From a virus (taxonomy: Duplodnaviria > Heunggongvirae > Uroviricota > Caudoviricetes), in IMG/VR virus record IMGVR_UViG_2684622543_000001: a DNA stretch of 25,194 nucleotides; one strand, 5' to 3'. The stretch's first letter is position 1. Every line of letters begins with the position of its first letter. This document shows, piece by piece, positions 21,374-24,300 of the stretch. Made by a program: the position numbers.

Positions 21374-24300
21374 TCATCCTCTCCGGATAAGGCACGGGCG
21401 TAATCTGCCAGTGTTTTCTTGTTGGTTGCTGCACCATCCTCTTCCTGCAGGCTCGCCAGCAGTGCACTGAGATCCAGCTGCCAGCGGGAAATACTGATGC
21501 GCAGCGCCGCCAGCGCATAAACGAAGCAGTCGAGCGCCTCATTGCGTCGCTTTTTGCTGTCCCACAGTATTTTTTTCCTGCCATCCACCCATTTTTCGAC
21601 CTGCTCTTCAGCAGTCAGCTGCTGCGCTTCGGTCAGATCAAAAATATCCGGGTTATTCGGGAAGTGAACGGCACCGGGAAGCGGTTCATCCCCTTCCGGC
21701 GTCAGTGTGAAGCGGTTATAAATCTGCTCTTTCGCGGTATCCGTACCGATTTCGGTAAGGTAAACCCCGTTTTTGTTTCGCTTACGAGGCATGCTGGCCA
21801 CCGGCTTACCGTAGACGGATGCCCCTTTAATGGGGATCACCCGGAACAGCCCATGCTTTTTCGAGCGTTCATACACAATGGTCGGGTCAATCCCGCCAAT
21901 ATCCCAGCAGATACGGGATATCGACATTTCTGCACCATTCCGGCGGGTATAGGTTTTATTGATGGCCTCATCCACACGCAGCAGCGTCTGTTCATCGTCG
22001 TGGCGGCCCATAATAATCTGCCGATCAATCAGCCAGCTTTCCTCACCCGGCCCCCATCCCCATACGCGCATTTCGTAGCGATCCCGCTGGGAGTCGATAC
22101 CGGCGGTCAGGTAAGCCACACGGTCAGGAACGGGCGCTGAATAATGCTCTTTCCGCTCTGCCATCACTTCAGCATCCGGACGTTCGCCAATTTTCGCCTC
22201 CCACGTCTCACCGAGCGTGGTGTTTACGAAGGTTTTACGTTTTCCCGTATCCCCTTTCGTTTTCATCCAGTCTTTGACAATCTGCACCCAGGTGGTGAAC
22301 GGGCTGTACGCTGTCCAGATGTGAAAGGTCACACTGTCAGGTGGCTCAATCTCTTCACCGGATGACGAAAACCAGAGAATGCCATCACGGGTCCAGATCC
22401 CGGTCTTTTCGCAGATATAACGGGCATCAGTAAAGTCCAGCTCCTGCTGGCGGATGACGCAGGCATTATGCTCGCAGAGATAAAACACGCTGGAGGGGTC
22501 ATCCGGCGTCCATTTGAGGCCAAACGGCGTCTCTTTGTCGCCAAATTTAAGATACTGCTCCTCCCCGCAGTGCGGGCAGGCAACATGAAAACGCATAAAA
22601 TGCGGGGATTCACTGGCTGCACGCTCAATCTGGCAGGTGCCTCTCACTTTGGGCGTGGAGCCACGGATGGACTTTGGCCAGACCGAGCCTTCAATACGTT
22701 TGTCGCCAAGGAACGTCGGAGAGCCTTCCTGTTCAATATCCTCATCAAAGGCAGCAAGTTCATCATAACCCGCCACATCCACCGACTTTTCACGGTAGTT
22801 TTTTGCCGCTTTACCGCCCAGGCACCAGAAGCCACGACCATTGGAAAAACGCTTCATAGTGAGCGTGTTATCCCGGTGCTTTTTGCCATACCACGGAGCC
22901 AGCGCCAGCAGCGACGGAATATCGCGGATGGTCGGCTCAACGTGGGTTTTCATAAAGTTCTCGGCATCACCATCCGTCGGCAACCAGATAAGTGTGTTGC
23001 GCTGCTTATGCTCTATAAAGTAGGCATAAACACCCAGCAGCATTTTGGAATAACCGACACGGGCAGACTTCACCACATTCACCTCACGGATGTAGTCGCT
23101 GCCCATCGCATTCATGATGGCCCGCTGAAAGGGCAGTGTTTCCCAGCGCCCTTCCTGGTATGCGGATTCTTTCGGGAGATAGTAATTAGCATCCGCCCAT
23201 TCAACGGCGGTCTGTGGCTCCGGCCTGAACAGTGAGCGAAGCCCGGCGCGGACAAAATGCCGCAGCCTGTTAACCTGACTGTTCGATATATTCACTCAGC
23301 AACCCCGGTATCAGTTCATCCAGCGCGGCTGCTTTGTTCATGGCTTTGATGATATCCCGTTTCAGGAAATCAACATGTCGGTTTTCCAGTTCCGGAAAAC
23401 GCCGCTGCACCGACAGGGGGATCCCGTCGAGAATACTGGCAATTTCACCTGCGATCCGCGACAGCACGAAAGTACAGAATGCGGTTTCCACCACTTCAGC
23501 GGAGTCTCTGGCATTTTTCAGCTCCTGTGCGTCGGCCTGCGCACGCGTAAGTCGATGGCGTTCGTACTCAATAGTCCCTGGCTGGAGATCTGTCTCGCTG
23601 GCCTGCCGCAGTTCTTCAACTTCCCGGCGCAGCTTTTCGTTCTCAATTTCAGCATCCCTTTCGGCATACCATCTTATAACGGCGGCAGAGTCATAAAGCA
23701 CCTCATTACCCTTGCCACCGCCTCGCAGAACGGGCATTCCCTGTTCCTGCCAGTTCTGAATGGTACGGATACTCGCACCGAAAATGTCAGCCAGCTGCTT
23801 TTTGTTGACTTCCATTGTTCATTCCACGGACAAAAACAGAGAAAGGAAACGACAGAGGCCAAAAAGCCCGTTTTCAGCACCTGTCGTTTCCTTTCTTTTC
23901 AGGGGGTGTTTTAAATAAAAACATTAGGTTACGGCGAAGAAGAACGGAAACGCCTTAAACCGGAAAATTGTCATAAATAGCGAAAACCCGCGCGCCTTCC
24001 GCCCCGTAACCTGTCGGATCGCCGGAAAGGACCCGCAAAATGATAATAATTATCATCTACATGTCACAACGTGCATCTACGCCATCAAACCACGTCAAAT
24101 AATCAATTATGACGCAGGTATCGTATTAATTGATCTGCATCAACTTAACGTAAAAACAACTTCAGACAATACAAATCAGCGACACTGAATACAGGGCAAC
24201 CTCATGTCAACGAAGAACAGAACCCGCAGAACAACAACCCGCAACATCCGCTTTCCTAACCAAATGATTGAACAAATTAACATCGCTCTTGTTCAAAAAG

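What the first reader, a model, noticed from the sequence alone, without database searches (positions are those of the whole stretch)
23993..24004. cosN 12-mer differs from lambda while both flanks are lambda-identical
cosB with its R-sites, the Nu1 leader and the right-end side (CGTAACCTGTCGGATC...) match lambda almost base for base as I recall it. The 12 nt at the cohesive-end position read GGGCGGAAGGCG instead of lambda GGGCGGCGACCT, with the changes confined to the 3' half. Lambdoid phages generally share the lambda cohesive end, so this could be a real variant cosN (altered nicking or packaging competence, possibly a packaging-defective prophage) or a local sequence error.
Basis: partly seen in the sequence, partly recalled or inferred. 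Interest (0 to 1): 0.55.

Follow-up and report, generated by a model that had tools for sequence, protein, structure and literature searches.

The report
Natural variant lambda-type cohesive end site
The phage DNA-cutting site in this window carries a real but ordinary natural variant of the lambda sticky-end sequence, changed only in the half known to tolerate change, so it is neither a sequencing error nor a sign of a dead prophage.

Summary
On the minus strand, window 24004..23993 reads GGGCGGAAGGCG where lambda has GGGCGGCGACCT: 5 changes, at bp 7, 8, 9, 10 and 12. The surrounding cos site is lambda-like with no indels.

It is not an error. The same 12-mer in the same context occurs in:
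- 158 of 5426 complete E. coli genomes (lambda allele: 4283);
- 78 IMG/VR contigs;
- phage PhiR46_1 and N15-like 46-kb phage-plasmids.

It does not come with an altered terminase:
- The window's gpA is 637/641 identical to lambda's, and its Nu1 178/181.
- Identical gpA and Nu1 proteins sit next to either allele.
- A full-length terL ORF follows the variant as often as it follows the lambda allele (41/46 vs 45/58).

The change pattern matches the published functional asymmetry of cosN (Xu & Feiss 1991; Feiss et al. 2015): bp 7-12 tolerate change and vary naturally (N15, phiD326, Gifsy-1). My scan found at least 21 natural right halves, including a one-step neighbour of this allele.

Verdict: a functional-looking further allele of a known kind of variation. 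The likely consequence is sticky ends incompatible with lambda-type ends (computed -9.5 vs -19 kcal/mol). The actual termini were not mapped. Interest is low.

The parts
23993..24004 (-). cosN cohesive-end 12-mer, variant allele GGGCGGAAGGCG. The left half (bp 1-6, GGGCGG) matches lambda; the right half (bp 7-12) is AAGGCG where lambda has CGACCT.
23991..24006 (-). 16-bp cosN: the 12-mer plus the conserved CG dinucleotide flanking each predicted nick site (ACG^GGGCGG...GGCG^CGCGGG).
   Evidence: Sequence. Conservation of the flanking CG is described in PMC4669245 and seen across all alleles.
24028..24034 (-). cosQ heptamer GGGTCCT at lambda coordinates -30..-24 (the packaging-termination signal), identical to lambda.
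   Evidence: The assignment of cosQ to these 7 bp is from my own knowledge of lambda coordinates 48473-48479.
23840..23955 (-). cosB. R3 is at 23940-23955 (AGGCGTTTCCGTTCTT), R2 is inverted at about 23881-23896, R1 is at about 23840-23855, and the I1/IHF interval lies between R3 and R2. Spacing to cosN is the same as in lambda.
   Evidence: CGTTTCC cores at 23946-52 (-), 23885-91 (+) and 23845-51 (-). Alignment without indels. R3 = bp 50-65 per PMC9026076.
23270..23815 (-). Nu1 (small terminase subunit, 181 aa), 178/181 identical to lambda Nu1.
21370..23295 (-). A (large terminase subunit, 641 aa), 637/641 identical to lambda gpA. The four differences (T151S, D185E, L404R, T466I) also occur beside the lambda allele.

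Best explanation
[quoted passage not shown] Inferred mechanism, as in lambda: Nu1 binds R3/R2/R1 in cosB (with IHF at I1) and positions gpA. gpA nicks the top strand after ACG and the bottom strand between bp 12 and 13. This leaves 12-nt 5' overhangs, GGGCGGAAGGCG and its complement. Bottom-strand nicking is anchored by the Nu1-R3 contact, so it is insensitive to the identity of bp 7-12. The same, essentially lambda-identical, terminase therefore serves both alleles. The allele keeps the GC content (10/12) and the computed annealing strength of the ends, but makes them non-complementary to lambda-type ends. Shown here: the sequence, its recurrence, the intact lambda-like context, and the absence of any terminase co-variation. 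Inferred: that the site is actually cut at these positions.
For: (1) Recurrence. The exact 12-mer lies between lambda-type flanks in 158/5426 complete E. coli genomes (169 places, 16 of them on plasmid records). It is also in 78 IMG/VR contigs, Escherichia sp. E1V33, and phage records PhiR46_1 and YDC107_1.
(2) PhiR46_1 is deposited as a complete phage genome with host ECOR13. It has telL/telR sites and a full lambda-like virion module. Its cos region aligns with the window.
(3) The window's gpA is 637/641 and its Nu1 178/181 identical to lambda's. In an alignment of 41 variant-linked and 45 lambda-linked gpA sequences, no residue discriminates the alleles. Four identical gpA sequences flank both alleles. 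Four identical Nu1 sequences do too.
(4) The variant occurs next to lambda-type, 21-like and N15-like small subunits, and with two left-flank types.
(5) A full-length terL ORF follows 41/46 variant sites and 45/58 lambda-allele sites.
(6) Literature (PMC4669245). Mutations in bp 7-12 have minimal effect (C11G none, G2C about 10-fold; Xu & Feiss 1991). Lambda and N15 terminases give equal yields on cosN-lambda and cosN-N15. Natural differences in bp 7-12 are called 'common', while the flanking CG pairs and cosQ are conserved.
(7) All conserved elements are present in the window: cosQ, ACG, GGGCGG, the flanking CG, R3/R2/R1, and no indels.
(8) A survey found at least 21 natural right halves with an invariant left half, including GGGCGGCAGGCG, one step from this allele, in the same cosB context (L355).
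(9) Computed duplex energy of the variant's own ends is -18.6 kcal/mol, against -19.0 for lambda's.
Against: No direct evidence of cleavage. No record or contig was found that is linearised at this 12-mer, and PhiR46_1 is deposited in its telomere-bounded form. The paper describing PhiR46_1 is not in the held library, so reading the 'host' field as a propagation host, and PhiR46_1 as plaque-forming, is my inference. No experiment has tested five simultaneous right-half changes. The tested cases are single mutations and the 2-bp N15 allele. Within E. coli the right half is not freely variable: there are essentially two alleles plus rare singletons. Some constraint or history is therefore left unexplained.
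Confidence: 0.85

Rival explanations
1. The variant is a crippled cosN in a decaying, packaging-defective prophage.
For: No direct evidence of cutting at this site. Five of six right-half bp differ, more than in any experimentally tested allele. The window holds only the late region, and three masked N runs prevent a complete check of intactness. The Lom homologue looks C-terminally short.
Against: The exact 12-mer is conserved across 81 loci with diverged flanks, three small-subunit types, and both integrated prophages and telomere phage-plasmids. Full-length terL follows 89% of variant sites against 78% of lambda-allele sites. The window's Nu1, A and the other head and tail ORFs have lambda lengths. 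The phage isolate PhiR46_1 carries it. Published genetics predict tolerance.
Confidence: 0.07
2. It is a local sequencing or assembly error in this window.
For: The changes are clustered in 6 bp of a GC-rich stretch.
Against: The identical sequence is present in hundreds of independent assemblies from different laboratories and platforms. Three IMG/VR contigs match the window at about 100% over roughly 4 kb around cos.
Confidence: 0.01
3. The variant marks a distinct nicking specificity: a terminase co-evolved to cut a different cosN.
For: The window's gpA differs from lambda's at L404R and T466I, next to the conserved acidic residues D401 and D465 (their catalytic role is from my memory of terminase nuclease domains).
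Against: R404 and I466 occur with both alleles: R404 in 3/41 variant-linked and 8/45 lambda-linked sequences, I466 in 16/41 and 7/45. No alignment column separates the classes, and identical 641-aa gpA sequences flank both alleles. Lambda and N15 terminases show no cosN specificity.
Confidence: 0.03

Closest known systems
Bacteriophage lambda cos (cosQ-cosN-cosB; 12-nt 5' ends GGGCGGCGACCT)
   Same: cosQ heptamer; the ACG and CG flanks at both nick sites; the left half GGGCGG; R3/I1/R2/R1 arrangement and spacing; Nu1 98% and gpA 99% identical.
   Different: bp 7, 8, 9, 10 and 12 of the cohesive end (AAGGCG vs CGACCT). Computed cross-annealing with lambda ends drops to 6 bp and -9.5 kcal/mol.
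Phage N15 / phiD326 cosN (GGGCGGCGTCCG; differs from lambda at bp 9 and 12)
   Same: A natural right-half allele with an unchanged left half and flanking CG. It shares G at bp 12. It has been shown experimentally to be cut equally well by lambda terminase. The variant is also the cos of N15-like telomere phage-plasmids in E. coli.
   Different: N15 has 2 changes and a simple cosB with a different small subunit. Here there are 5 changes beside a lambda-type complex cosB.
Gifsy-1-type cosN (differs at bp 8, 9, 11; GGGCGGCAGCGT in my scan) and related alleles CAGACT / CAGACG / CAGGCG
   Same: The same class of right-half variation. CAGGCG (L355) is one substitution from the window's AAGGCG and sits in the same cosB context.
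   Different: Different bases. Most of these sit beside other cosB types (right flank CGCAGGATTT...).

Membership tests
lambda-like cos site (12-nt 5' cohesive ends, sensu Feiss et al. 2015) | cosQ heptamer about 24-30 bp upstream of the top-strand nick | tested here: met
   GGGTCCT at window 24034..24028 (minus strand), the same position as in lambda.
lambda-like cos site (12-nt 5' cohesive ends, sensu Feiss et al. 2015) | Conserved left half of cosN (GGGCGG) and a CG dinucleotide flanking each nick site | tested here: met
   ACG|GGGCGGAAGGCG|CGCGGG. These elements are invariant across all 21 alleles tabulated, partly by construction of the search patterns.
lambda-like cos site (12-nt 5' cohesive ends, sensu Feiss et al. 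2015) | [quoted passage not shown] | tested here: met
   7/12 positions are identical and all differences are in bp 7-12. Full identity with lambda is not met, but the cited definition does not require it.
lambda-like cos site (12-nt 5' cohesive ends, sensu Feiss et al. 2015) | Complex cosB (R3, inverted R2, R1, IHF site) at fixed spacing from cosN, followed by terS and terL | tested here: met
   R-site cores in the -/+/- orientation; no indels from cosN to the Nu1 start; Nu1 and A 98-99% identical to lambda's.
lambda-like cos site (12-nt 5' cohesive ends, sensu Feiss et al. 2015) | Staggered nicks 12 bp apart producing 5' overhangs in virion DNA | not testable with these tools
   Needs terminus mapping of virion DNA. 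No record linearised at this site was found.
Defective / cryptic prophage cos remnant | Disrupted or missing terminase and morphogenesis genes next to cos | tested here: not met
   Nu1 181 aa, A 641 aa, and lambda-length B, FII, Z, U, G, H and J ORFs. The interruption of gene V is a masked N run, not a frameshift.

The most novel reading that the evidence does not exclude
The two discrete cosN alleles in Escherichia lambdoid phages (lambda type in about 98% of sites, AAGGCG type in about 2%) act as cohesive-end incompatibility groups. One terminase cuts both. A chromosome that starts at one allele and ends at the other, as could arise in polylysogens, in tandem or recombinant concatemers, or in helper-satellite situations, could not cyclise. 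The allele would then be maintained by selection as a barrier between co-resident phages, rather than being neutral drift in an unconstrained half-site.
Probability: 0.12. Interest if true: 0.4.

Novelty: new member of a known kind. Interest (0 to 1): 0.18.

Why it matters
The practical value is for annotation. This 12-mer should be accepted as a bona fide cos in E. coli prophages and N15-like phage-plasmids, and not flagged as an error or as a sign of decay. Biologically it adds the most diverged right-half allele seen so far beside an essentially lambda-identical terminase. That extends, by comparative evidence, the published claim that bp 7-12 of cosN do not matter for cutting. Sticky ends differing at 5 of 12 positions also predict that chromosomes with one lambda-type and one variant end could not circularise. 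This is a testable, modest point about genetic isolation among co-resident lambdoid phages.

Tried and rejected
- **Terminase co-variation.** I tested every column of a 41 vs 45 gpA alignment and grouped the Nu1 sequences. Nothing separates the alleles, so I rejected an altered nicking specificity.
- **V gene frameshift.** I suspected one from overlapping ORFs at 14475-15081. It is an 81-nt masked N run.
- **Linearised records.** I searched for phage records linearised at the variant end, which would show cutting directly. None was found.
- **Literature on PhiR46_1.** The name is absent from the library and Brenes & Laub 2025 is not held. The 12-mer appears in no phage paper.
- **GTDB species-representative scan.** It gave one true hit (Escherichia sp. 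E1V33) and eight GC-rich chance hits, which I excluded from the analyses.
- **Scan with bp 7 not C.** It was largely swamped by chance matches in GC-rich environmental contigs.
- **Ungapped flank comparison.** It is noisy beyond about 40 nt because of different cosB types. I used it only for the near flanks and for the linkage at positions 71, 97 and 137.
- **AAGGCG repeat.** The hexamer AAGGCG also occurs at lambda coordinates 49-54, at the edge of R3. A 6-mer repeat within 400 nt is expected by chance about 10% of the time and there is no flanking homology, so I rejected it as evidence of templated mutation.

Full report
**Observation.** The window is the late region of a lambda-like phage, read in reverse: tail fibre genes through J, H, V, E, B, A and Nu1, then cos. 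On the minus strand, window 24004..23993 reads GGGCGGAAGGCG. Lambda has GGGCGGCGACCT at the homologous position, which I confirmed in lambda, DE3, HK629/HK630 and many other records. An alignment to lambda over coordinates -200..+201 shows 23 differences and no indels. Five lie at cosN bp 7, 8, 9, 10 and 12, ten in the 200 nt to the left, and eight in the 189 nt to the right. Positions -16..-1 and 13..34 are identical. Against a background divergence of about 4.6%, five changes in six adjacent bp is a clear cluster.

**Not an error.** I used a 40-nt query in which every 28-nt seed must contain the whole variant 12-mer.
- In complete E. coli genomes it finds the variant in 158 of 5426 genomes (169 places, 16 on plasmid records). 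The equivalent lambda-allele query finds 4283 genomes and 8147 places.
- In the phage collection the variant is in PhiR46_1 and YDC107_1.
- An exact-pattern scan of IMG/VR gives 78 contigs.
- Among one genome per GTDB species, the only true hit is Escherichia sp. E1V33.
- In a sample selected only on the flanks (TACG-N12-CGCGGGTTTTCGC; 120 contigs, row-capped), 115 carry the lambda 12-mer, 3 carry this variant and 2 carry single-base variants.
- Three IMG/VR contigs match the window at about 100% over roughly 4 kb around cos.

**Context is an intact lambda-type cos.**
- cosQ (GGGTCCT) sits at -30..-24.
- The ACG and CG flanks of both nick sites and the left half GGGCGG are unchanged.
- The three R-site cores (CGTTTCC) lie in the lambda arrangement: R3 and R1 in one orientation, R2 inverted. 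Their spacing from cosN is unchanged.
- Nu1 (181 aa) is 178/181 identical to lambda's, and gpA (641 aa) is 637/641 identical.
- The other morphogenesis ORFs have lambda-like lengths.
- The apparent break in gene V is an 81-nt masked N run, one of three such runs in the window.

**No co-evolved terminase.** I extracted terL ORFs downstream of 46 variant and 58 lambda-allele cos sites. Forty-one and 45 of them, respectively, are full length. In their alignment no column separates the two classes. The window's four differences from lambda gpA, including L404R and T466I, occur beside both alleles. In four cases an identical 641-aa protein flanks both alleles. Four identical Nu1 sequences also flank both alleles. 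The variant is found next to three small-subunit types: lambda-type, a 21-like type (MKVNKKKLAEIF...) and an N15-like type. It also occurs with two left-flank types. It sits on a short haplotype, with linked changes at lambda coordinates 71, 97 and 137. This points to a common origin followed by spread through recombination.

**Evidence that phages with this cos are active.** The roughly 46-kb 'plasmids' that carry it are N15-like elements: protelomerase and a RepA-type replication protein, combined with a complete lambda-like head and tail module (pEC21Z151-46K). PhiR46_1 has the same layout. It is annotated with telL and telR, ParAB and intact Nu1 through Stf, and is deposited as a complete phage genome with host ECOR13. 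I read the host field as a propagation host. That is an inference, because the describing paper is not held.

**How it most likely works.** Feiss et al. 2015 (PMC4669245) report several relevant points.
- Base-pair differences in bp 7-12 are common among lambda-like phages: N15 and phiD326 differ at bp 9 and 12, Gifsy-1 at bp 8, 9 and 11.
- Many mutations in bp 7-12 have minimal phenotypes: C11G has none, while the symmetric G2C costs about 10-fold (Xu & Feiss 1991).
- The asymmetry arises because the terminase that nicks the bottom strand is anchored to cosB through the small subunit at R3.
- Lambda and N15-specific terminases give equal yields on cosN-lambda and cosN-N15.
- The CG pairs flanking the nicks, and cosQ, are conserved.

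The window's allele fits this picture exactly. Everything reported as constrained is unchanged, and all five changes lie where change is tolerated. I therefore infer normal nicking after ACG on the top strand and between bp 12 and 13 on the bottom strand. This would give GGGCGGAAGGCG 5' overhangs. That step is inferred, not shown.

**Place among natural alleles.** I read N15's end directly: GGGCGGCGTCCG. An IMG/VR scan anchored on cosQ, ACG, GGGCGG and CG, pooled with the earlier loci, gives at least 21 distinct right halves. They include the N15 type, the Gifsy-1 type (CAGCGT), CGTCCT, CAGACT and CAGACG. GGGCGGCAGGCG occurs once (L355), one substitution from the window's allele and in the same cosB context. 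The counts come from differently selected, row-capped scans and are not frequencies. The allele is thus the far end of a graded natural series, not an isolated oddity.

**Consequence.** With DNA parameters the variant's own ends pair as strongly as lambda's (-18.6 vs -19.0 kcal/mol). A lambda end and a variant end pair over only 6 bp (-9.5), and lambda x N15 gives -15.3. The 2-bp N15 mismatch already costs 4-fold in yield. A chromosome with one end of each allele would therefore probably not cyclise. Most variant-bearing E. coli strains presumably also carry lambda-allele cos sites, since 79% of genomes do. This incompatibility could matter in polylysogens, but nothing here shows that it is selected.

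**What remains unexplained.** Within E. coli the right half is nearly two-state rather than freely variable. History (a single haplotype spreading by recombination) or frequency-dependent compatibility could each explain this. I could not discriminate between them.

**Verdict.** The feature is real and is a further natural allele of a well-described kind of cosN variation. It is very probably functional. It is not an error and not a mark of a defective prophage. Interest is low. The only mildly new points are the extent of the divergence (5 of 6 bp) beside an essentially lambda-identical terminase, and the allele's distribution: about 3% of E. coli genomes, three small-subunit types, and N15-like phage-plasmids.

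Noticed in passing
window 507-756, 1922-2153, 14635-14715: Three runs of N (250, 232 and 81 nt), apparently masked sequence. The third lies inside the major tail gene V and splits its ORF call, mimicking a frameshift.
   Followed up: yes
window 4614-5096 (-): The Ail/Lom homologue is only 160 aa and matches profile positions 1-159 of 199. PhiR46_1's Lom is about 199 aa. This may be a C-terminal truncation or a pseudogene.
   Followed up: no
window 24204-24437 (+) and 24480-24905 (+): Just beyond cos on the right-end side lie a DUF3950 (YlcI/YnfO-like, 77 aa) ORF and a DUF1398 (YbcV-like, 141 aa) ORF.
   Followed up: partly
L206 (NZ_CP101200.1, pEC21Z151-46K); L272 (PhiR46_1): The roughly 46-kb 'plasmids' of E. 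coli assemblies that carry the variant cos are N15-like telomere phage-plasmids. They have protelomerase, telL/telR and ParAB, joined to an essentially lambda-type terminase, head and tail module with a complex lambda-type cosB, unlike N15 itself.
   Followed up: partly
window 23993-23998 vs 23951-23956 (lambda coordinates 7-12 and 49-54): The variant right half AAGGCG is the same hexamer as the one at the cosN-proximal edge of R3. There is no flanking homology, so it is probably chance.
   Followed up: partly
lambda coordinates 71, 97, 137 (window 23934, 23908, 23868): These SNPs are in linkage with the variant cosN across IMG/VR loci. For example, position 97 is C in 70/78 variant loci and T in 68/114 lambda-allele loci. 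The allele therefore sits on a short cosB haplotype.
   Followed up: partly
L355 (IMG/VR): A single contig carries GGGCGGCAGGCG, one substitution from the window's allele, in the same PhiR46_1-like cos context. It is a natural intermediate.
   Followed up: partly
L148 and L156 (IMGVR_UViG_3300045988_113976, 56 kb): One metagenomic viral contig holds two copies of the variant cos, reported on opposite strands. This may be two phages, an inverted duplication or an assembly chimera.
   Followed up: no
IMG/VR lambda-allele loci (e.g. L010, L013, L034 and others): About a fifth of lambda-allele cos sites are followed not by terL but by a different small HTH protein (GVATQTEVARHLSLTDRQL..., 170 aa, 14 loci). 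This is consistent with PICI/EcCI satellites carrying cos plus an Rpp-like gene.
   Followed up: no
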